Source: Phycisphaerales bacterium
GTDB lineage: Bacteria; Planctomycetota; Phycisphaerae; UBA1845; PWPN01
NCBI GenBank assembly: GCA_012729595.1
Contig: JAAYCU010000283.1
Coordinates: forward strand, 4 to 64,003
DNA length: 64,000 nt
Direction of reading: 5' to 3'
Shown: positions 1,334 through 26,300 of the stretch, in pieces
How positions within the stretch are numbered: the first letter of the stretch is position 1
Layout of the letters: each line of letters starts with the position of its first letter
Program-made: the position numbers and the translations under genes
The notes under the pieces: model-generated
What the model saw: the letters and a program-made list of their open reading frames with translations, nothing else
The model's database searches: none
Told to the model about the DNA's origin: nothing

Positions 1334-2374
1334 CTAACGTGGCAGATTGCCCAACTGACCGCAGGCGGCCAGTTGTTCGCGCCCTTTGGTGATGCGCCTT
1401 TTACATACCTGCCCTTCCTCCTTGAGCCAGCCTAGGAAAGCTACGACCAATTCCTCGCTCGGAGCGGGCCAGGGTGATTCTCTTCGCGGGTTATAGGGGA
1501 TAACATTGACCACGCACTTGAGCGGCCGAAGATACTCGACCAGTTCGCTAACATGTTCGCGGGCATCGTTTACTCCGGGGATCAGTACGTATTCTATCAT
1601 GAAGAACTGGCACTTGCGCAGCGGATAGGCCATCAACGCTTCGCGTAGCTTCGCCATCGGTACAAGCCGGTTGATAGGCATAATCTGCGAGCGAATTTCG
1701 TCGTTGGGGGCGTTGATGGAGACGGCCAGGTTGATCCGCCGCCAGCCGAGGGCGGCTAGTCGGCGTATGCCTTCGGGTTGGCCGACGGTCGAGATCGCAA
1801 CGCGTTCCATTCCCAGGGATAAACCCGAGCGGTCGGTGATGACACGGATCGCCTGGATAACCGCATCGAAATTATCAAACGGCTCTCCCATGCCCATAAA
1901 GACGACATTACGAATCGGGCCGCCGGTTTCCCGGATGGCCGCCGCCACCTGTCCTACGATCTCTCCGGCGGTTAGATTTCGCGGCCGGCCGATCCGGGCC
2001 GTCTGGCAGAACAGGCATCCGCGGGCACAGCCGATCTGTGAGGATACGCAAAGCGTTTTACACGCGCGGCCCCGGTGCTGCATGGGCACTACCACGCTTT
2101 CTATTTCCAGGCCGTCAGCGGTACGTTGAATCAACTTGGTCAGATCACCATCGATCGCCTGATGGACCACGGGCAGGATGTCCGCATGAAGCGTACTGTT
2201 CTCTACTCCCTCCCCGTGCAGCAATCGACGATACTCCGCCCGCAGCGATTTTTGCTGATGGCGGTGCGGCCTCACGAGATCGTGCACTTCGTTGAAAGTC
2301 AGACCGAGAATATCCATAAGTGGGAAAAGCCTTATTAGTGTTCGCTGGCGATCTCCGCAAATCTCCCGCTTCAA
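1334..2374 (-). CDS. rlmN: 23S rRNA/tRNA (adenine-C2)-methyltransferase, RlmN/Cfr radical-SAM family
   Basis: Radical-SAM CxxxCxxC cluster in SSQIGCARGCLFCQTA. Also MGMGEPFDNFDAV and a C-terminal AACGQL, and the length (346 aa) is typical of RlmN. Confidence 0.9.
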   Translation of the reverse strand: MKREICGDRQRTLIRLFPLMDILGLTFNEVHDLVRPHRHQQKSLRAEYRRLLHGEGVENSTLHADILPVVHQAIDGDLTKLIQRTADGLEIESVVVPMQHRGRACKTLCVSSQIGCARGCLFCQTARIGRPRNLTAGEIVGQVAAAIRETGGPIRNVVFMGMGEPFDNFDAVIQAIRVITDRSGLSLGMERVAISTVGQPEGIRRLAALGWRRINLAVSINAPNDEIRSQIMPINRLVPMAKLREALMAYPLRKCQFFMIEYVLIPGVNDAREHVSELVEYLRPLKCVVNVIPYNPRRESPWPAPSEELVVAFLGWLKEEGQVCKRRITKGREQLAACGQLGNLPR

Positions 2375-2483
2375 CGCAGCAGATCGGTATATGGTACCAC
2401 GGACCAGTCGAGGGCTACACCTTTCGTGGCTCGGTCTTGATCGCTACTTGTGCGATTGTTCGGTCGGACCTGACATTTACCGC

Positions 2484-5400
2484 TTAGGGCTCCGGGAATG
2501 GCGGGTCTACGAGAGGGCGTGGGCCCCGGGCGGGGTCCAGTACCATGCCGGTCTTCCGTGCGATTAGTTGCCGCCACTGCTTGGCGCTGGCCTGCTCCGA
2601 GGTCAGGTTGTACCAGCGAAGGGCGCCGTGGTCGGTGACCGCAAATAGGAAGTTCTGTGTGTTTTCTTCGGTTGTACCCCGGCTGAAGCTCAAGGCTATG
2701 ATCGGGTGTGTGCTTTCCAGGGGTGCACCGAGAGTCGCTATCGATGGGGTGCCCTCCGTGTGGTTTATTGTCTGCGGTAGTTCGTAGACATGTATTCGGT
2801 TGCCGCAAGCCACGGCCAGCAGCGGGCCTCCACGTTCGGCGGCCTGAGTTTGGACCGTGAGCCGACTGGGCGCGGAGGGGTCGGTCCCCGTGGGAGATTC
2901 TATTGTGCCTATTGACCGACCATTGCTGGCGGACCACAAGGTGACGTGTCCGCCGTTATGTCCAACGGCCAGGATGGAATCTTCCGGCGGGCAGAATAGC
3001 ATGGAGCGGATGGGTTGCCCGGTATTAATCTCGCAGACGTGCTCGAAGAACTCTCCGGTGTGGTTGATTACGACACGTCCGAGGGCGTCGGCGATTGCCA
3101 GCAGCGATCCGTCATGGTTGAAACGTAGCAATGCCGGTCGGCCGGTGAGCAGACCGATCTGGCCGAAGATGTCAGCCTCGCCGGACGGACCCACATTATG
3201 CAGAGTGATACGTAAATCGGCATGGGGAATGGCCGCCAGCCGCCCATTGGCGGAAAGGGCGAATGTGCGCGTGGCCGTCGTCGGCAAGGTCCAGCTTCGT
3301 CGCAGTTGGCCCACGTCGAAATCGAAGACGCGGGCCTGATCTCGCCAGTTGATTTCCATCAAGGTATCGCCATGCGCACTGAGTCGCCATTGATCGCTCG
3401 GGTCGTATGAGGCAATGGCCTCGCGAGTTTGGCTGAGATCGAGCGGATCGATCGGCGTCCAGACATAATTCTCGTTCTGGCGGGTAAAGGTGACAATCAG
3501 AGGTTTTTCCGAGACGCACAGGTCGTCGGTGGTCAACGGATCGTTCAGGAATGACGGCAGGCTCGGCAGGTATTCCGCTCGGAAACCCGGTGGCGGTTGC
3601 TCATGCAGGTCGTAGACGTACAGCCAGTCGTTTCTGGTCGGATCAGCCAGGCGAATGAAGGCGAATTGCCCATCAGCGGTCATTCCGGTCCGCTGTAAAT
3701 CTGCCGAAGGGGTCAGCAGGCGATACATACGTTCGCTTCCGTTTCTCACCCAGACCGATGCCTGGTAAAGAGTCTCCTCCTGATGGTCGCCGGCGATTCG
3801 TTCCGTGCAGACCAGTCGGCCCGCGGCGCGGTCGGCGGATACGGGAAAGCGAGCATTCAAGCCGGTCAGGATTTCGGGTGTTGACAGGGCGGTTGGTAGA
3901 CCAACCGATGCCGCGATCTGATTCACGATCTGTTTTGTGGCCACGTCGACAAAAGTAATTTGATTGTCGTCCCAGAAGCAAAGGGTTTGTCCGTCCGTAA
4001 TGAGTTGGGCATCGTGCCCTCGGGCTTCAAAAAAGGTCGGCGGGGAGGCGTGTATGTTCCAGAGGCGGATGGACTTGCCGGAGAGTTGCTGGCCGAAGGT
4101 TTCCGAGCCAACAACCAGAAGATGGCCCCCGTCTGGACCGAATTCCATGTATACTGGGGCGACCTGTTGGCGACGTCCGGCTTCCTCTGCTCGCAGAATG
4201 CTGACCAGCCGGGGTAGTGGTACGGAGTCGGCAACGTCGAAAACCGTGATTTGCCCAAGCAGGTCGGTAACCGCCAGGTACGAGGAGGCGGCCGAGGCCG
4301 CGAAACAGAAGCCCACCGGTTGACCCAGGAACGGCAAGCGCAGAAGGTCGCCGGTGTGCAGGTCAAAGATTTCCAAGACGCCCCGCGAGGCAAGGGCCGC
4401 GAGATATCGGCCGTCACCGCTTATCTCCGCCGGCATTGGCGACCGGATGCTTTGCAGAAGGCGGGGGGGCTGCTCCTCCGTGAAGTCGTAAACCTCGATC
4501 CGATACCAGTTTGGTTCCTGGTTGCCGCTGACAGGTTGAGTTTGGGCAGTGGTTGGTGCGGGGGTGGCGGACATGAACACAACTACCCCGGTATCAACGG
4601 CCAGACGAAGCTGAACGATCCTGCCCAGCCCGGTCAAGGGCTCATCATGTAAAGGATATCCGTCGGTCGTCCAGAACTCCGCTATGTCGGATTGCTCGTG
4701 CGTATGCAGGGTCAGCATCTTGCTGCCGTTGCGGTTGAAGCCTACCCATTTGAGTCGGCCAGCATTCCTGGTCGGCACCGGTTGCTCGGTACGCAGGACG
4801 GGATCTATCAGCCTTATCTGGTCGTCCGCGGTACCGACCAGCAGCATATGTCCGGCCGGGTCGAAGGCGAATGCCGACGGTGTATCCGCCAGCCGGTAGC
4901 GTCCGTGCAAGGGGGCCAGTTCGTGTAAAACCATACTGAGCGGGAGGCTCGAAGATGCGGCGTCCGAGTTATTTTCCGTCAGGCTTTCGGCATACCAGAG
5001 AGCGCTTTGTAGATAATCACCGCGCTCGGCCGCGGCTTGCGCGATATCCCGGGGCGATACATGCGGTTCGTGATGCATGTCGTGACGGGAGAGATGGACC
5101 CCTATCAGTATCAGTCCCGACAACACCCCGGCCAGTGCCGCGGTGAACGCCCAGCGGGCCGCTATCGGTTTCGTACTCCACCACAGGCCCAGACGCCCGA
5201 CCCTTTTTGCGTGGATCGGTTTACCGGCCAGCCAGCGATCGAGATCGTCGGCCAGCGCGCCGGCGTTGGCATACCGTTGGTCAGGGTCTTTGGCCAACAT
5301 GCGTTGAACAATAGTTTCCAGCGGGCGGGGGATGGCCGGGTTACGCGTGGACAGCGCTATCGGTTGATGCACGGCGATGGCTCGCAACAAGCCTTCGCGC

Positions 5401-22156: not shown

Positions 22157-22603
22157 ATGCCTGATGCACGTCTGGGACCGCCGGCACCGGTGGTTTTGGC
22201 CATGATTCTATGCGATGCGATTTACCAGGATCCGGCGACGCACAAGTGCACGATTCTCGGCACGTTTTCCACGATCAACGCCAGAAAGTTTCCGGTGGTC
22301 CATCGCCAGTTGGCGATTCATGTGGCCATGACCAACGGACATGGTAAGACGCGCATACGTCTGAGTCTGGTGGGTAACGATGATAATAAGCCGCCACTTT
22401 TTTCCAGGGAGGCCGCTCTTGATTTTCGTGATCCTCGGATGGTGGCGGAACTAAATTTTGTCCTGACAAATCTGACTTTCGAGGCTCCCGGAGAATATCG
22501 CATTCAGTTATTGGCCAACGATGAATTGCTCATGGAGCGACGACTCTATGTAATGAATATCGTTGTCGGCCCCAGCCCTGCCGAGCCCACTCAGGAATTG
22601 TGA
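22157..22603 (+). CDS. Hypothetical small protein (148 aa)
   Basis: Good RBS (AAGGAG) and coding-like composition. Predicted beta-rich. No family recognised confidently. Confidence 0.6.
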   Translation: MPDARLGPPAPVVLAMILCDAIYQDPATHKCTILGTFSTINARKFPVVHRQLAIHVAMTNGHGKTRIRLSLVGNDDNKPPLFSREAALDFRDPRMVAELNFVLTNLTFEAPGEYRIQLLANDELLMERRLYVMNIVVGPSPAEPTQEL

Positions 22604-22901
22604 CCATTCGCAATATTATTCATTCTTAACCGATTGTTCGTCTAAGGTTTGGGTATGGGGGCCTGTGGCTCATCTTCTTCCTATTCTTCCACGCATGCGA
22701 AATCGAGTGGGAAATCTTTTTTCTTCATTCACAGATCTCACAGGTAATGCGTCGGGCGCATGAAATGCGCCATGTGTAAAAAAGTCCTGTTTTATTCGGT
22801 TTTTTCGTCATCAGGCATACCCTTCTCTGGGATTATCAATGACATCTGAAGGGTCCGATAAAAATTTCGTGCGGAATGGAGTATTTCTTGAAAGAATACA
22901 C

Positions 22902-22956
22902 TTGATATGAGTGGGATAATGTGGTATATAATCCCATGTAAGGCCCTATTGTGGGA
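22902..22956 (+). promoter_or_regulatory. mraZ promoter with phased GTGGG (MraZ-box-like) repeats
   Basis: TTGATA (22902-22907), a 17-nt spacer, then TATATA/TATAAT (22925-22932). GTGGGA at 22911, GTGGTA at 22921 and GTGGGA at 22951 are all in 10-bp register. An inverted TCCCAT sits at 22932-22937. Confidence 0.45.
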
Positions 22957-22994
22957 TGAGACAATTCGGAAACTGACTTCGGGCATAGAGGTTC

Positions 22995-23471
22995 ATGCTG
23001 TATACAGGTACTTACGATCTGGCAATCGATCCCAAGAACCGGTTGTCGATACCTGCGGGCATACGCTCGGATATGGATGCGGAAAAGGACGGTAGCCGTT
23101 TTTATCTGGTCCCGGGCAAGCGGAGAGGCACTTTAAGTTTCTACGCCGACAAATATTTCGAACGTTACGCTGAGCAATATCACTGTTCTCTACAAGAAGG
23201 GGAGGAGAAAGAGGATTTCGAGGCGGTTTTTTATTCAATGGCCACCGTGTTGGACATTGACCGACAGGGGCGGGTGGTTTTACCCCAGCGTGCCTTGGAT
23301 CATGTCGGGCTTGGCAAACGCGTGACCATGAGTGGAGCCCGGGACCATCTGGTCTTATGGAACCGGGAAGATTACGCCTCGTTCATGGAACGCAACTGGA
23401 GTCGCTACCCCGACCTGCTACGCCAAGCGCAGTTGCGTACGGAAATAGCCAAAGGGAACGGTGATCACTGA
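22995..23471 (+). CDS. mraZ: Transcriptional regulator MraZ
   Basis: Two MraZ/AbrB-like repeats with DPKNRLSIP and DRQGRVVLP. Length 158 aa. First gene of the dcw cluster. Confidence 0.9.
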   Translation: MLYTGTYDLAIDPKNRLSIPAGIRSDMDAEKDGSRFYLVPGKRRGTLSFYADKYFERYAEQYHCSLQEGEEKEDFEAVFYSMATVLDIDRQGRVVLPQRALDHVGLGKRVTMSGARDHLVLWNREDYASFMERNWSRYPDLLRQAQLRTEIAKGNGDH

Positions 23472-23960
23472 TTAACTTTTCCGGCACTTATGGAAGTGCG
23501 GAATTATAGGGTTTGTCATCTGAATAAAGGGCCAAGAGACACTCTACGTTTTTATTCAGGAGAAACAGCGGACACAATCGGTCGGTTCCGGTGTGTCGTA
23601 GCGAGTGGAAACAGTAGGGAGCAATGACGAAAATCCTCATCGGTCGCTGATGTGGCAGGTCGATGAGGTTGATAGAGCCTGAGGCGAATTCAGCGCAAGA
23701 AGCGAAAGGAGTCGCCGGGCTGATCACCTTCTGGTGATCTTGAGGTACAGGTTGCGAGTTGTCGGCAGCAAGCCGACGGTACGTTCTCCACGACTCAGGC
23801 AGCCGACGCACGATTCGACGGCGTGGTCGAATCGCCAGTGGGGCTGACAGAAGCAAGTGCATCGGCGGGAGAGGCGGCTTTCACCTGCCGTTGCGGTTGT
23901 CGAGGAGCATCGTATATTATTATATCGTAGCCTTGTTCTTATTAAAAAGCCAGGAGGGCC
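23472..23960 (+). ncRNA. Candidate structured RNA, leader or 3' UTR between mraZ and rsmH (family unknown)
   Basis: No credible ORF on either strand. Nested helices:
- 23520-28 / 23551-59
- 23635-42 / 23661-68
- 23677-83 / 23794-800, which encloses 23712-18 / 23723-29 and 23761-66 / 23772-77
- 23811-19 / 23826-34
The region ends at the terminator at 23961. Confidence 0.3.
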
Positions 23961-24003
23961 GGGGCTTACGTCGGCAGGGAGGCTGGACGAGCCCCTTTTT
24001 TTT
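23961..24003 (+). terminator. Rho-independent terminator between mraZ and rsmH
   Basis: GGGGCT-ua-CGTC-gg-CAG-ggagg-CTG-GACG-AGCCCC followed by eight T (23996-24003). Confidence 0.75.
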
Positions 24004-24117
24004 GCCGGGAACATTCCGGCATAGGTGCGTATAATATCATTATGCGACTGTGTTTAGGTTTAATGCGTAAGCCGTCCACTGGGGGATGGCAAACTGTTTG
24101 GCCGCTTGTGAACCGAG

Positions 24118-25053
24118 TTGAATGTGCAGCGCGACGGGATTGAGCATGAGCCCGTATTGTGCGGGCCGGTATTATCATTGCTGGATCCCCGGCCGGGGGA
24201 GACCGTGGTGGATGCCACGCTCGGGCATGGTGGACATGCCCGACTGATGGCTGAGGCCATTGGTCCGACCGGTCGCCTTATCGGCTTTGATGTGGATGAA
24301 CAAAATATCGAGCGGGCTCGTCGGCGTTTGGAACACATGGTGCCGCCTGATCGGCGCCCCTCGATCAGTCTCTTGCGGGCCAATTTTCACGAATTGAACG
24401 AGCAACTTGATCTGCTGGGCGTTGCTCAGGTGGATGTTGTTCTGGCAGACCTGGGGCCCAGTACGGACCAGCTCCTGGATACGGAACTGGGTTTGAGTTT
24501 CAGCGCGGACGGCCCTTTGGATATGCGTCTGGATAGTCGCTTGAGTACCACCGCCGCCGACCTGGTCAACGCCATGGGTGAAAACGATTTAGCCGATTTG
24601 TTCTATAACCTCAGCCAGGAGCGTTTCAGCCGAAGGATTGCTCGACGGATCTGCAAGGTTCGGCATGAAGGGCGAATCTGGCGTACATCGGAATTGGTAC
24701 GGATTATTTGCTCGGCCGTGGGCGAACCCGCGCACAGCCGAGCGGGGCGTATTCACCCGGCCACGCGCGTATTTCTGGCGCTGCGGATGGCGGTGAATCA
24801 CGAGGTGGAAAACCTGCAGTCTCTCTTGGGGTTATTGCCGGATCGGCTGCGATCCGGTGGCCGAGCGGGGATCATCAGTTTCCATAGCGGCGAGGATCGT
24901 CTGGTTAAACAGGATTTTCTGGCCCGCAAGGCTAGTGGGCTTTATGAGATTCGGACGAAAAAGCCGATGACACCATCAAGAGAAGAATGCGCGAGTAATC
25001 CTCGATCCCGCAGCGCCAAGCTGCGGGTGGCGGCGCGGTTGCCGGCGGGCTAA
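24118..25053 (+). CDS. rsmH: 16S rRNA (cytosine1402-N4)-methyltransferase
   Basis: HEPVL...VVDATLGHGGHA, ISFHSGEDR, and a C-terminal NPRSRSAKLR. The start is the TTG at 24118 or the GTG at 24124. Confidence 0.92.
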   Translation: MNVQRDGIEHEPVLCGPVLSLLDPRPGETVVDATLGHGGHARLMAEAIGPTGRLIGFDVDEQNIERARRRLEHMVPPDRRPSISLLRANFHELNEQLDLLGVAQVDVVLADLGPSTDQLLDTELGLSFSADGPLDMRLDSRLSTTAADLVNAMGENDLADLFYNLSQERFSRRIARRICKVRHEGRIWRTSELVRIICSAVGEPAHSRAGRIHPATRVFLALRMAVNHEVENLQSLLGLLPDRLRSGGRAGIISFHSGEDRLVKQDFLARKASGLYEIRTKKPMTPSREECASNPRSRSAKLRVAARLPAG

Positions 25054-25181
25054 GCAGTTTATTTTTAGAAAAGTGCCGGCGAGAACAAATATGTGATTGT
25101 TCAACGGATGGCGTTGAATACAATAGGCCCTGTCGACCGTCCCGGAATACGGTCGCTTTGTACCTGAACACGGAGGTTGCA

Positions 25182-26300
25182 ATGACCCGCGAAACTAAGA
25201 TCGGTTTGCTGGTCGGGTTGGGTTTTATTGTCGTATTTGCGGTACTTCTGTCGAACAATAATCCAGCGCCACCCTCTGAAAAAAGCCTGGTCAATCTGGC
25301 GCAAAGAACCGCCTCGGAGACACTTCCGCTAGGCCAGGGCACCGTGGAGCTGGAGAACACCTTTGCCCGAGGCCGGGCGGAAGCGACCATCAACGATGTA
25401 TCTGGAACGTTGTCTTCCAGGTCGGCCGAGGTCGTCGATCAGTTGGTTTCGGCTTATGAGCTGGATGATATCATTCGTTTGCCGGTTGTAGACCTGCTCG
25501 AGCAGCCGACCACAGTGGTTCGCAATACGACCTTGGAGGCCGTGACCGGCTCGCTGCTGGAAGAACCCGCTTTGCCGACAGTGGTCGATGCGCGGGTCCG
25601 CATGGCTCCGCCGATCCCCTTGTCCGAAAGAACGATCCCGGATCCACAGCCGACCGAGCGGGAGCCCCAACCGCGTAAAAGCCCCGATCTGACGCCCGAG
25701 ACGGAAGGGCCAAGCGGCACGGCGTCCTTGAAGGAGTACGTGGTACAGCGGGGCGATACCCTATGGAAGATCGCCAAGGGGGAATACAACAGCTCCAAGA
25801 CCGCTGTGGTTGAACATATCGTGCAGGCCAATGCCTCCATCATCAAGGACAAGAATACTCTGGTAGTAGGGCAGAAGATCGTGCTGCCTCAGTTGCCTTC
25901 GGACCTTTTCGAGCCGGTGGTCAGCGTGAACGTGTCGGGATCCGGCGACCGTCTGGTTCGGATGGACGACTTGTTGCATGGCACGAGTTCGGGCAGTGAG
26001 CGCCGGGCTCCCCTGGATTATAAACTGGTCGAGACGGACGGAACCAAGGCCCGAACCGACACCGGTGCGGTGGTGGCGGACAACTCCGTTAAGCCGGCTT
26101 ACCAGGAATACGTGATTCAGCCGCGGGATACTTTCACCAATATCGCCGAACGGCAACTGGGCTCCGGTAAATACTGGACAGAAATCAAAAAGCTTAATCC
26201 GAACGTAGACCCGACCCGGATGGTGCCGGGGACGAAGATCAAGCTCCCCAGCAAACGATCTTTATCCCAGACCAGTGATGTACAGAGAGCATCGGCATGA
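25182..26300 (+). CDS. Bitopic membrane protein with two C-terminal LysM domains
   Basis: The ATG at 25182 follows GGAGG (25172-25176). TM segment IGLLVGLGFIVVFAVLL, then a long P/E/T-rich linker. LysM motifs YVVQRGDTLWKIAKGEY and YVIQPRDTFTNIAERQLG...KLNPNV. Its stop overlaps the ftsL start (ATGA, 26297-26300). Confidence 0.8.
   Translation: MTRETKIGLLVGLGFIVVFAVLLSNNNPAPPSEKSLVNLAQRTASETLPLGQGTVELENTFARGRAEATINDVSGTLSSRSAEVVDQLVSAYELDDIIRLPVVDLLEQPTTVVRNTTLEAVTGSLLEEPALPTVVDARVRMAPPIPLSERTIPDPQPTEREPQPRKSPDLTPETEGPSGTASLKEYVVQRGDTLWKIAKGEYNSSKTAVVEHIVQANASIIKDKNTLVVGQKIVLPQLPSDLFEPVVSVNVSGSGDRLVRMDDLLHGTSSGSERRAPLDYKLVETDGTKARTDTGAVVADNSVKPAYQEYVIQPRDTFTNIAERQLGSGKYWTEIKKLNPNVDPTRMVPGTKIKLPSKRSLSQTSDVQRASA

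What the first reader, a model, noticed from the sequence alone, without database searches (positions are those of the whole stretch)
23472..24117. 646-bp structured, ORF-free spacer with a strong intrinsic terminator between mraZ and rsmH
mraZ and rsmH are normally adjacent. Here they are separated by 646 bp with no credible ORF on either strand.

**Helices read from the sequence:**
- CTGAATAAA / TTTATTCAG (23520-28 / 23551-59).
- CCTCATCG / CGATGAGG (23635-42 / 23661-68).
- A long-range helix GCCTGAG / CTCAGGC (23677-83 / 23794-800). It encloses two hairpins, GATCACC-ttct-GGTGATC and GTCGGC-agcaa-GCCGAC.
- A 9-bp hairpin CGATTCGAC-ggcgtg-GTCGAATCG (23811-34).
- A GC-rich terminator plus eight T (23961-24003).

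**Possible antiterminator.** The octamer GTCGGCAG occurs at 23761-68 and again inside the terminator 5' arm at 23970-77. As a result, GCCGAC (23772-77) or CAGCCGACG (23800-08) could pair with the terminator arm instead. That is the alternative-pairing geometry of an antiterminator.

**Possible small RNA.** An AT-rich block at 23907-23950 with TATATT/TTATAT could instead be a promoter for a ~70-nt RNA ending at the terminator.

**Downstream.** A perfect TATAAT (24030-35) follows the terminator.

**Interpretation.** This may be a riboswitch or attenuator gating transcription into rsmH-ftsL-ftsI and beyond, or an independent ncRNA.
Basis: partly seen in the sequence, partly recalled or inferred. 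Interest (0 to 1): 0.6.

Follow-up and report, generated by a model that had tools for sequence, protein, structure and literature searches.

The report
Structured RNA between mraZ and rsmH
The unusually long gap between two cell-division genes encodes a roughly 415-base RNA with a conserved fold that ends in a transcription stop signal. It occurs only in one group of uncultured Planctomycetota, matches no described RNA family, and in some relatives also carries a tiny protein gene that this organism has lost.

Summary
mraZ (22995-23471) and rsmH (24118-25053) are separated by 646 nt that contain no conserved ORF and a strong intrinsic terminator (hairpin 23961-23995, U8 23996-24003).

The spacer is a real, conserved RNA element on the + strand (about 23589-24003). 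Fifteen related loci share its architecture:
- a short 5' block;
- a variable hairpin;
- a hairpin with an invariant A-A-N-G-G-A loop;
- a long-range helix (23727-35 with 23949-57);
- a covarying central hairpin (23811-34);
- a terminator hairpin whose apical loop is invariably C-A-N-G-G-A-N-G.

No Rfam family matches, including the positionally analogous actinobacterial mraW motif.

Deeper relatives encode a conserved ~70-aa protein inside the long-range helix. A rough tree suggests this ORF is ancestral and was lost repeatedly while the RNA fold was kept.

Most likely the RNA is the terminated 3' part of the mraZ transcript and acts as a protein-binding regulatory RNA. The loops fit the CsrA/Rsm consensus, but this is an untested lead. 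A conditional attenuator gating rsmH remains a serious rival.

One metagenome scan was wasted by my own pattern error.

The parts
22903..22957 (+). mraZ promoter with MraZ-box-like direct repeats: CTTGAT (-35-like), GTGGGAtaatGTGGTATATAAT, CCCA, and a third GTGGGA. Context: the probable promoter for the RNA.
   Evidence: The same layout (CTTGnn, GTGGGA-N4-GTGGTAT overlapping a -10-like box, CCCA, then GTGGGA about 30 nt on) appears upstream of mraZ in most of the 15 loci. Calling them MraZ boxes rests on knowledge of E. coli MraZ operators, recalled from memory.
22995..23471 (+). mraZ (158 aa)
   Evidence: Pfam PF02381, E 1.2e-16. 102 homologues at E <= 1e-10.
23472..23588 (+). Poorly conserved linker between the mraZ stop and the conserved RNA core.
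   Evidence: Diverged even between the window and L001. No sigma-70-like promoter on the + strand.
23595..23610 (+). Block 1: GYCGCAGCGAGTGGAA (here GTCGTAGCGAGTGGAA). Possibly a 4-bp mini-hairpin YCGY/GUGG.
   Evidence: Found in 13 loci about 100-205 nt upstream of block 2; about 100-150 nt in 12 of them. RNAalifold pairs cols 12-15 with 21-24 but with almost no covariation. No consistent long-range partner found.
23635..23668 (+).
   Evidence: A long hairpin at this position is predicted in each of the 10 sequences folded separately, with different sequences.
23676..23723 (+). P3 domain. Invariant hairpin GCGA-AAGGAG-UCGC (23702-15) with loop A-A-N-G-G-A-K-U. It is closed either by UCAGC/GCUGA (23690-94 with 23719-23) or by AGCCUG/CGGGCU (23676-81 with 23716-21) plus a small hairpin UUC/GAA (23689-91 with 23699-701).
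   Evidence: A 22-mer is identical in the window, L001 and L006. The GCGA/UCGC and CAGC/GCUG pairs are predicted by RNAalifold in three alignments. L040 and L002 have a continuous 10-bp stem with the same loop. Which closing helix is real is unresolved, because the 3' strand is nearly invariant.
23727..23735 (+). 5' strand of the long-range helix LR (CCUUCUGGU).
   Evidence: Pairs with 23949-57. The window's own MFE predicts it. RNAalifold predicts it on an unfitted alignment of the core. Cognate versus non-cognate duplex test: 0/20000 permutations. 8 of 9 pairs show compensatory changes.
23736..23948 (+). Variable insert enclosed by LR. Non-coding here. In L038 and L039 the homologous interval encodes the ~70-aa sORF.
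23811..23834 (+). Central hairpin CGAUUCGAC-GGCGUG-GUCGAAUCG. The family loop consensus is G-R-C-G-Y-G-G.
   Evidence: 11 sequences, 86% of cells paired, 6 of 8 pairs compensatory, covariation 0.42 versus 0.22 in shuffles (0/500), slid controls <= 0.26.
23949..23957 (+). 3' strand of the long-range helix LR (GCCAGGAGG), 3 nt upstream of the terminator.
23961..24003 (+). Intrinsic terminator. Three-segment hairpin 23961-23995 with apical loop C-A-G-G-G-A-G-G (23975-82), then U8 (23996-24003).
   Evidence: Folds at -23 kcal/mol. Covariance model R1 finds exactly one copy per related spacer and none elsewhere in 320 kb. Two loci not used for training score 38.8 and 54.7 bits. 91% of cells paired; the C-G closing pair, the A and the GGA are invariant in 15/15.
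24004..24117 (+). Interval between terminator and rsmH. Contains hairpin GCCGG-gaacatt-CCGGC (24004-20) and TATAAT (24030-35).
   Evidence: A -10-like box in a similar context is seen only in the window (TATAAT), L001 (TGTAAT) and L034 (TAGAAT). The other loci show no conserved sigma-70-like promoter here.
24118..25053 (+). rsmH (mraW). The true start may be the GTG at 24124, because the TTG is not conserved in L001.
   Evidence: Pfam PF01795, E 2e-82. L001 sequence.

Best explanation
Window 23589-24003 (+) encodes a ~415-nt structured non-coding RNA.

**Transcription.** It is most likely transcribed from the conserved, MraZ-box-bearing mraZ promoter as the 3' part of the mraZ transcript. It ends at the strong intrinsic terminator (hairpin 23961-95 plus U8). 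In this genome that terminator insulates rsmH and the dcw genes, which then use a start downstream (TATAAT at 24030).

**Fold.** A long-range helix (23727-35 with 23949-57) closes off a variable insert. This places the P3 hairpin (loop AAAGGAGU) next to the terminator hairpin (apical loop CAGGGAGG).

**Proposed function.** These two invariant A-N-GGA loops are the functional heart. I propose they are binding sites for a dimeric hairpin-loop-binding protein of the CsrA/Rsm type. The RNA would then be a protein-bound regulatory RNA (target or decoy) linked to the MraZ regulon.

**Evolution.** The element appears to descend from a small-protein mRNA. Relatives keep a ~70-aa ORF inside the long-range helix, with its stop codon in or 3 nt before the terminator's 5' arm. 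The window's lineage lost the ORF but kept the fold.

**Shown here.** Conservation, the helices, the terminator anatomy, absence of an ORF in the window, and presence of the ORF in relatives.

**Inferred.** Co-transcription with mraZ, termination in vivo, the identity of the binding protein, and the direction of ORF loss.

**Confidence.** That this is a real conserved structured RNA, I put at about 0.9. The figure given in the confidence field is for the mechanism as a whole.
For: **Clade-specific long spacer**.

**Shared architecture.** Block 1, block 2 and the terminator loop in 11 loci, plus L087 and L088.

**Long-range helix.**
- Cognate duplexes average -17.15 versus -13.4 kcal/mol for non-cognate pairs, 0/20000 permutations.
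- 92% of cells paired, 8 of 9 pairs compensatory, covariation 0.56 versus 0.35 (0/500).
- Predicted de novo by RNAalifold on an unfitted alignment and by the window's MFE.
- 18 G-U cells make it viable only on the + strand.

**Central hairpin.** 6 of 8 pairs compensatory.

**Terminator module.** One copy per spacer, and recovered in two loci held out of training. The apical stem covaries GC to UA in L040 and L002, and the loop C-A-N-G-G-A-N-G is invariant.

**CsrA/Rsm lead.** The loop equals the Rsm/CsrA consensus 5'-A/U-CANGGANG-U/A-3' (PMC6849547, citing Schubert 2007). CsrA with FliW is reported for Planctomycetes (PMC4682653).

**Transcription.** The mraZ promoter is strongly conserved. 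No sigma-70-like + strand promoter was found inside the spacer. The window has U8 and TATAAT after the terminator.

**sORF.**
- Present in L038, L039, L040 and L002 (E down to 6e-28).
- 11 protein clusters in the large database.
- A remnant in L086.
- None in the window.
- sORF lineages are basal and scattered on the tree.
Against: - No transcript data exist. Promoter inference in Planctomycetota is weak.
- Only two conserved GGA loops. GGA is not enriched in the RNA (8 observed versus 10.3 +/- 2.6 expected). This is unlike CsrB/RsmZ sponges.
- CANGGANG occurs at chance frequency in the window (45 versus 40 expected). The resemblance therefore rests only on conservation and loop placement.
- No csrA was found in the window or the fetched loci. 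Its presence in this organism is untested.
- Most relatives lack a recognisable promoter between the terminator and rsmH. That favours read-through regulation over insulation.
- Only 15 related sequences, not phylogenetically independent. The long-range-helix count used a hand-fitted alignment.
- The tree is an unbootstrapped neighbour-joining tree.
Confidence: 0.4

Rival explanations
1. Conditional attenuator or leader of rsmH-dcw. Transcription from the mraZ promoter must pass this element to reach rsmH. The folded RNA, with a bound ligand, protein or translating ribosome, decides whether the terminator forms.

In sORF-bearing relatives, a ribosome terminating at the stop codon would cover the terminator's 5' arm and cause read-through. 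That stop codon lies inside the arm or 3 nt before it. In the window, some other factor would play this role.
For: - Position between a conserved promoter plus mraZ and rsmH.
- No conserved sigma-70-like promoter between the terminator and rsmH in most of the 15 loci.
- Stop-codon and terminator overlap in all four sORF loci: GGGGCUAA in L038 and L039; TAA-CCC-hairpin in L040 and L002.
- U-tracts are weak in several lineages.
- The actinobacterial mraW motif occupies the same position and is classed as a probable cis-regulatory element (PMC2864571, PMC3890552).
- The unusual sequence conservation inside a terminator hairpin suggests the terminator itself is a regulated object.
Against: - No conserved antiterminator or other mutually exclusive pairing was found.
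- A central-loop/terminator-arm pairing (shared GACGCG) does not follow the compensatory change seen in L033 and L087 (my reading of the rows shown).
- The window has no sORF, a very strong terminator (U8), and a TATAAT downstream.
- The region inside the long-range helix is variable and sometimes coding, which is unlike a metabolite aptamer.
Confidence: 0.3
2. Decaying small-protein gene. The spacer is the remnant of the sORF mRNA. The conserved hairpins only served mRNA stability or translation control of that ORF and persist by inertia. The element has no function in the window's lineage beyond terminating mraZ.
For: - sORF in L038, L039, L040 and L002, with a remnant in L086.
- The central hairpin aligns in frame with the sORF codons for the D-A-(D/G)-E segment.
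- The AT-rich insertion and indels in the window's insert show relaxed constraint there.
Against: - If the sORF is ancestral, the fold has been kept through several independent losses.
- In the 10 sORF-less loci (plus L086, which keeps only a remnant), the P3b loop, the long-range helix, the central hairpin and the terminator loop remain intact, with compensatory substitutions. That requires purifying selection on the RNA after ORF loss.
Confidence: 0.15
3. The window does encode a small protein here that is too diverged, or frame-shifted by assembly error, to be recognised. One candidate is the 91-aa ORF 23759-24034, or a relative of L001's 71-aa ORF ending QEDRG*.
For: - L001 has a 71-aa ORF in the same frame, relative to the central hairpin, as the L039 sORF, and it ends at the same GGGGCUAA stop.
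- The window reads QEGRG at the equivalent place, but with TTA instead of TAA.
Against: - Profile HMMs of the sORF family score about 0 bits on every frame of the window and L001.
- The L001 ORF is broken in the window by 1-nt and 11-nt indels.
- No ORF is shared among the window, L001, L084, L085, L033, L034, L036 and L006.
- The window's 91-aa ORF runs through the terminator and the U-tract.
Confidence: 0.05

Closest known systems
mraW RNA motif (Rfam RF01746; Weinberg et al. 2010, PMC2864571)
   Same: A conserved structured RNA in the mraZ-mraW(rsmH) intergenic region at the head of the dcw cluster. It is a candidate cis-regulator, and it is transcribed in Corynebacterium (PMC3890552).
   Different: That motif is restricted to Actinomycetales and is about 100-135 nt. 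It did not match the window even at E <= 10, nor any of 14 homologous loci at gathering score. The present element is about 415 nt, has a long-range helix and an intrinsic terminator, and occurs in Planctomycetota.
CsrA/RsmA-binding RNAs (CsrB/RsmZ-type decoys; CsrA-controlled leaders such as B. subtilis hag, recalled from memory)
   Same: GGA presented in hairpin loops. The terminator's apical loop is an exact CANGGANG and the P3b loop is A-A-N-GGA (consensus from PMC6849547). There are two sites, suited to one CsrA dimer. The RNA ends in a Rho-independent terminator, like the Rsm sRNAs.
   Different: Only two conserved GGA loops rather than 5-22, and no overall GGA enrichment. No GacA/UvrY-type promoter. 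It is much larger than RsmZ. Binding is untested. In FliW-type systems no RNA antagonist of CsrA is known (from memory).
3'UTR-derived and dual-function bacterial RNAs (e.g. CpxQ, SroC; SgrS/SgrT, RNAIII/hld, SR1/SR1P; recalled from memory)
   Same: A structured RNA sharing the terminator of an upstream protein gene. Some family members both fold and encode a small protein.
   Different: Those RNAs act by base-pairing through short seed regions and are 100-500 nt with simple hairpins. No seed or target is evident here. The coding capacity is present in some lineages and absent in others of one family.
hok-type type I toxin mRNAs (recalled from memory)
   Same: An mRNA of about 400 nt in which a long-range pairing encloses a small ORF and a 3' hairpin.
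   Different: The sORF product is predicted to be a soluble three-helix protein, not a hydrophobic toxin. The 5' strand of the helix is internal, not at the 5' end. No antisense RNA is evident. The ORF is absent in the window.

Membership tests
Rfam mraW RNA motif (RF01746) | Match to the family covariance model | tested here: not met
   cmscan of 22700-24400 at E <= 10 returned only two chance-level hits to other families. No hit at gathering score in the window or in 14 homologous loci.
Rfam mraW RNA motif (RF01746) | Located in the 5' region of mraW/rsmH, downstream of mraZ | tested here: met
Rfam mraW RNA motif (RF01746) | Taxonomic range Actinomycetales | tested here: not met
   All related loci are Planctomycetota, Planctomycetales or Phycisphaerae MAGs.
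Intrinsic (Rho-independent) terminator | G+C-rich hairpin immediately followed by a U-tract on the transcribed strand | tested here: met
   Hairpin 23961-95 (-23 kcal/mol) plus U8. The simple scanner missed it because its loop limit is 3-8 nt.
Intrinsic (Rho-independent) terminator | Hairpin and U-tract conserved in relatives | tested here: met
   Hairpin present in 15/15. About 11 of 15 have at least 4 U in the following 8 nt. The tract is weak in L033, L036, L039 and L040.
Intrinsic (Rho-independent) terminator | RNA 3' ends at the U-tract in vivo | not testable with these tools
   No transcriptome data for this uncultured clade.
Riboswitch / transcription attenuator | Conserved structured domain upstream of a terminator | tested here: met
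   P3, the long-range helix and the central hairpin are conserved with covariation.
Riboswitch / transcription attenuator | Conserved mutually exclusive antiterminator/terminator pairing | tested here: not met
The central-loop/terminator-arm idea fails on covariation (my reading of the rows). No alternative was found, but the search was not exhaustive.
Riboswitch / transcription attenuator | Downstream genes depend on read-through (no promoter of their own) | tested here: inconclusive
   No conserved sigma-70-like promoter after the terminator in most loci, but TATAAT, TGTAAT and TAGAAT occur in the window, L001 and L034.
Riboswitch / transcription attenuator | Ligand binding | not testable with these tools
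   -
CsrA/Rsm-binding RNA | GGA in the loop of a short hairpin, fitting A/U-CANGGANG-U/A | tested here: met
   Terminator apical loop C-A-N-G-G-A-N-G in 15/15. L040 and L002 read U-CACGGAYG-A. P3b loop is A-A-N-G-G-A. Consensus taken from PMC6849547.
CsrA/Rsm-binding RNA | Many GGA motifs (decoy sRNAs) | tested here: not met
   8 GGA in 415 nt versus 10.3 +/- 2.6 expected. Only two sit in conserved loops.
CsrA/Rsm-binding RNA | csrA gene in the same genome | not testable with these tools
   None in the window or loci. Reported at phylum level for Planctomycetes (PMC4682653). The MAGs could not be scanned.
CsrA/Rsm-binding RNA | Protein binding shown | not testable with these tools
   -
Small-protein (sORF ~70 aa) gene family found in relatives | Intact conserved ORF matching the family profile | tested here: not met
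   The profile scores about 0 bits on all frames of the window spacer. It scores 93-120 bits in L038, L039, L040 and L002.

The most novel reading that the evidence does not exclude
This is a previously undescribed class of large (~400 nt) bacterial regulatory RNA at the head of the cell-division (dcw) cluster of a Planctomycetota clade. It began as the mRNA of a 70-aa protein and has repeatedly become purely non-coding while keeping its fold.

Its two invariant A-N-GGA hairpin loops are brought together by a 215-nt-spanning helix. They would clamp a CsrA-type protein dimer. The effect would be either to set the level of terminator read-through into rsmH and the dcw genes, or to titrate the protein. 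This would give the first RNA partner of a FliW-type CsrA system and a post-transcriptional input into the MraZ regulon.
Probability: 0.2. Interest if true: 0.8.

Novelty: new variant of a known kind. Interest (0 to 1): 0.6.

Why it matters
**MraZ and dcw regulation.** MraZ and the promoter in front of it are the most conserved regulatory feature of the bacterial division and cell-wall cluster. How expression of the cluster is tuned after transcription initiation is poorly known. A large, conserved, terminator-bearing RNA placed exactly between mraZ and rsmH points to an extra regulatory layer. It is the second independent case after the actinobacterial mraW motif.

**Coding to non-coding transition.** The family offers a natural series in which one RNA is coding in some lineages and non-coding in others with the fold preserved. 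This is a rare, directly testable example of how an mRNA can become a structured ncRNA.

**CsrA in FliW-type systems.** If the GGA loops do bind CsrA, this would be the first RNA partner proposed for CsrA in a phylum where only the protein antagonist FliW is expected.

Tried and rejected
1. **Metagenome scan wasted by my error.** The pattern GCGAANGGANTCGCCGNGGCTG had one base too many. I modelled it on the L038 variant. All 42 hits (L042-L083) are unrelated sequence with no mraZ or rsmH nearby. The correct pattern, GCGAANGGANTCGCCGGGCTG, could then only be run on viral contigs, with 0 hits.
2. **Rfam.** No hits at gathering score (window, 14 loci) or at E <= 10 on the region. The cow-rumen-4 (E = 8) and ctRNA_p42d (E = 3.3) matches are chance. 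The latter is just the terminator shape.
3. **Block 1 partner.** A sliding duplex search gave no positionally consistent partner. A blk1/central-loop kissing interaction is possible (CCGC/GCGG) but has no compensatory support.
4. **Central loop (GACGCGG) as antiterminator.** It shares GACGCG with the terminator's 3' arm. The terminator's compensatory change in L033 and L087 (CGUC/GACG to GGUC/GACC) is not mirrored in the loop, so I rejected it.
5. **Block 1 as an MraZ operator.** GAGTGGAA resembles the promoter boxes GAGTGGGA. It is a single box with no promoter-like context, so I did not pursue it.
6. **CsrA gene search** in the window and all loci found nothing.
7. **sORF protein annotation.**
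   - Only sub-threshold Pfam MerR-DNA-bind hits, E about 0.005-0.02; nothing in NCBIfam.
   - No PDB sequence relatives.
   - AlphaFold model of three helices, pLDDT 79. No significant Foldseek match. The best hits include B. subtilis YnzC at E about 3, which is not meaningful.
8. **P3 closing helix.** I could not decide between UCAGC/GCUGA and AGCCUG/CGGGCU plus P3a, because the 3' strand is invariant.
9. **Hok-like type I toxin reading.** Rejected because the protein is not hydrophobic.
10. **DNA-level explanation (operator palindromes).** Rejected because the long-range helix spans 215 nt, covaries, and needs G-U pairs on the + strand only.
Full report
**1. What is in the window**

Pfam confirms mraZ (22995-23471, PF02381, E 1.2e-16) and rsmH/mraW (24118-25053, PF01795, E 2e-82). 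Downstream genes are a LysM-domain protein in the usual ftsL position, a PBP of the FtsI type, murE, murF, mraY, ftsW and murG. This is therefore the head of a dcw cluster.

The + strand folds at -261.8 kcal/mol (z = -6.4 against 20 shuffles); the - strand gives z = -4.4.

No Rfam family matches. That holds at gathering score for the whole window and at E <= 10 for 22700-24400. The only E <= 10 hits were two chance-level matches, and RF01746 (the mraW motif) was not among them.

**2. The long spacer is clade-specific and conserved**

A scan of one genome per species with the RsmH protein returned 32 loci.

| Group | mraZ-rsmH distance |
|---|---|
| Non-planctomycete phyla | 39-171 nt |
| Window's relatives L001, L006, L002, L027 (all Planctomycetota MAGs) | about 640-810 nt (L027 from its spacer 2316-3000) |

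MraZ homologues (102 at E <= 1e-10) were used to fetch further loci. Gene callers placed nothing in the spacer of the closer relatives.

Eleven loci first showed the same ordered blocks, and L087 and L088 were added later:
- block 1, GYCGCAGCGAGTGGAA;
- block 2, GCGAAnGGAGTCGCCGGGCTGA, about 100-205 nt further (100-150 nt in all but L088);
- a terminator hairpin with the loop CGTCGGCAnGGAnGC, 200-280 nt after that.

**3. Structure: what covaries**

(a) *Terminator module.* RNAalifold gives a three-segment hairpin. A covariance model built from 13 sequences found exactly those 13 copies in 320 kb of window plus 42 loci and nothing else. It then found the element at the expected place in two loci that were not in the training set: L088 at 54.7 bits and L087 at 38.8 bits. 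Across 15 sequences, 91% of cells pair. The apical C-G pair, the A and the GGA of the loop C-A-N-G-G-A-N-G never vary. The pair below it switches from G-C to U-A in L040 and L002.

(b) *Central hairpin (window 23811-34).* In 11 sequences, 86% of cells pair and 6 of 8 pairs have compensatory changes. The covariation score is 0.42 versus 0.22 in shuffles (0/500), and slid controls are <= 0.26. The loop G-R-C-G-Y-G-G is conserved.

(c) *P3 hairpin.* GCGA-AAGGAG-UCGC (23702-15) is invariant in stem and in the loop A-A-N-G-G-A. L040 and L002 carry the same loop on a continuous 10-bp stem. Its closing helix is ambiguous: UCAGC/GCUGA according to RNAalifold, or AGCCUG/CGGGCU plus a small UUC/GAA hairpin by eye.

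Four lines of evidence support it:
- The window's own MFE contains it.
- Each of 13 sequences forms a -14 to -22 kcal/mol duplex between the two tracts. Cognate pairs beat non-cognate pairs (-17.15 versus -13.4 kcal/mol, 0/20000 permutations), with refitting allowed for every pair.
- On a hand-aligned mini-alignment, 92% of cells pair and 8 of 9 pairs are compensatory. Examples are AUUUCCAGG/CCUGGAAAU in L034, ACUUCCUG/CAGGAAGU in L087 and CUUUCGG/CCGAAAG in L006.
- RNAalifold predicts the helix de novo on an unfitted MAFFT alignment of the core with the insert removed.

The 18 G-U cells in this helix would be A-C on the other strand, so the RNA is read from the + strand.

**4. What does not hold up**

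These features are confined to the window and its 94%-MraZ-identical relative L001, or to the window alone:
- CTGAATAAA/TTTATTCAG;
- GATCACC-ttct-GGTGATC, which competes with the conserved long-range helix;
- GTCGGC-agcaa-GCCGAC;
- the GTCGGCAG repeat that underpinned the antiterminator idea.

The AT-rich 'promoter' block lies in a window-specific insertion relative to L001. I found no conserved pairing that would exclude the terminator.

**5. The ORF question**

For the window, 'ORF-free' is right. None of its spacer ORFs on either strand is conserved. The window and L001 differ by frame-breaking indels.

Four more distant relatives do carry a conserved small gene between block 2 and the terminator: L038 3441-3674, L039 875-1093, L040 3255-3467 and L002 2646-2858. 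The products are 70-77 aa, and pairwise tblastn reaches E 6e-28. A profile search found 11 clusters of about 70 aa in 5.8 billion proteins, all unnamed.

Family profiles score 93-120 bits in those four loci, 16.6 bits (E 5.7e-5) on a truncated remnant in L086, and about 0 bits on every frame of the window, L001, L084, L085, L033, L034, L036 and L006.

In L038 and L039 the ORF sits inside the long-range helix. The central hairpin lies within its codons for ...D-A-(D/G)-E... The 3' strand of the long-range helix encodes its last residues, and its stop codon is inside the terminator's 5' arm (GGGGCUAA). In L040 and L002 the stop is 3 nt before the hairpin.

A rough neighbour-joining tree of MraZ plus RsmH puts L040 and L002 basal and scatters L038, L039 and the L086 remnant among sORF-less lineages. 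The simplest reading is an ancestral sORF lost several times while the RNA fold was retained. This is an inference from an unbootstrapped tree.

The protein is predicted as three helices (pLDDT 79). It has no significant sequence or fold relative.

**6. Transcription context**

Upstream of mraZ, most loci share a canonical-looking promoter: CTTGnn, then GTGGGA-N4-GTGGTAT overlapping a -10-like TATnnT, then CCCA, and a third GTGGGA about 30 nt on. These are direct repeats of the kind MraZ binds in E. coli (my recollection), so autoregulation is probably conserved.

Nothing comparable occurs inside the spacer. Co-transcription of the RNA with mraZ is therefore the default inference.

After the terminator, only the window (TATAAT), L001 (TGTAAT) and L034 (TAGAAT) show a -10-like box in a similar context. 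These three also have the longest U-tracts. The other loci show no conserved promoter. This leaves two readings open: insulation plus a new promoter in the window's case, or regulated read-through.

**7. Mechanism**

The most deeply conserved features, present even in the basal L040 and L002, are the two hairpin loops with A-N-GGA. One is 5' of the insert or sORF and one crowns the terminator. In the larger clade the long-range helix brings them side by side.

The terminator loop is an exact match to the Rsm/CsrA consensus 5'-A/U-CANGGANG-U/A-3' (PMC6849547, citing Schubert et al. 2007). L040 and L002 even have the flanking U...A. CsrA with FliW is reported for Planctomycetes (PMC4682653).

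I therefore favour a protein-binding regulatory RNA, with a CsrA-type dimer as the candidate ligand. It would be terminated at 24003 and would form the 3' part of the mraZ transcript.

Caveats:
- CANGGANG is at chance frequency in the window (45 versus 40 expected).
- GGA is not enriched in the RNA (8 versus 10.3 expected).
- No csrA was found in the DNA available.
- Nothing about binding was tested.

The main rival is a conditional terminator. In sORF-bearing relatives, a ribosome stopping in or just before the terminator's 5' arm would suppress termination. Control of sORF translation, for example through the P3b loop and the GGA-containing Shine-Dalgarno 34-60 nt downstream, would then set read-through into rsmH and the dcw genes. 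The window, lacking the sORF, would be a derived state of that circuit.

**8. Comparison with known systems, and novelty**

The closest known thing by position is the actinobacterial mraW motif (RF01746; PMC2864571, PMC3890552). Membership was tested and not met.

By loop chemistry the element resembles CsrA/Rsm ligands, but it lacks the multiplicity of decoy sRNAs. By evolution it resembles dual-function RNAs.

It is a new RNA family with an unusual coding and non-coding dimorphism. I therefore rate it as a new variant of a known kind.

**9. Limits**

- Only fifteen related sequences, all from MAGs or metagenomes, and not independent.
- One hand-fitted alignment.
- No transcript data.
- One metagenome scan lost to my own pattern error.

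Noticed in passing
window 22903-22957 (and upstream of mraZ in L001, L084, L087, L033, L086, L034, L088, L038, L039): Strikingly conserved mraZ promoter. It reads CTTGnn, direct repeats GTGGGA-N4-GTGGTAT overlapping the -10-like box, an inverted CCCA, and a third GTGGGA about 30 nt downstream. These are probable MraZ autoregulatory boxes in Planctomycetota.
   Followed up: partly
L038 3441-3674; L039 875-1093; L040 3255-3467; L002 2646-2858; proteins P0103-P0113: An unannotated family of ~70-aa proteins, encoded between mraZ and rsmH. Consensus: mltgsvraVreaLkllaaGlapdDadetlaaHVaeLeRRvrrLnerGgalaevrLSpdll...; H-V-x-x-L-x-R-R is invariant. Predicted three-helix fold, with no Pfam, NCBIfam or PDB relative. 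All four tested members give the same sub-threshold MerR-DNA-bind hit.
   Followed up: partly
window 25158-26300: A 380-aa protein with two LysM domains occupies the position after rsmH where ftsL normally sits. The same arrangement occurs in all related loci.
   Followed up: no
window 22157-22603: A DUF6941 gene lies directly upstream of the mraZ promoter. The same neighbour is seen in L033 and L084.
   Followed up: no
L027 2316-3000; L041 2984-3184: L027 (Phycisphaerales MAG) also has a ~685-nt mraZ-rsmH spacer, but it lacks the terminator module, blocks 1 and 2, and the sORF. L041 has only about 200 nt. Something different may fill L027's spacer.
   Followed up: no
window 23479-23503: A 10-bp hairpin (UUCCGGCACUU-AUGG-AAGUGCGGAA) lies directly after the mraZ stop codon, followed by UUAUAGGGUUUGU. 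It is not conserved in L001. It overlaps a chance-level Rfam hit to cow-rumen-4 (E = 8).
   Followed up: partly
window 24004-24020: A second small hairpin, GCCGG-gaacatt-CCGGC, lies immediately after the terminator's U-tract and just upstream of the TATAAT. The motif CCGGCAT...GCGTAnAATAT recurs in L034.
   Followed up: partly
L087 2556-2582 and L088 2570-2600: These two loci share an extra conserved block upstream of block 1 (GAGCGAGGGAACSGTCTSGGAAGGGGG, the start of a hairpin). It is absent from the window and suggests lineage-specific 5' extensions of the RNA.
   Followed up: no
window 24118-24126 versus L001 2995-3005: The TTG listed as the rsmH start is TTT in L001. The conserved in-frame GTG at 24124 is the more likely start codon.
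   Followed up: no
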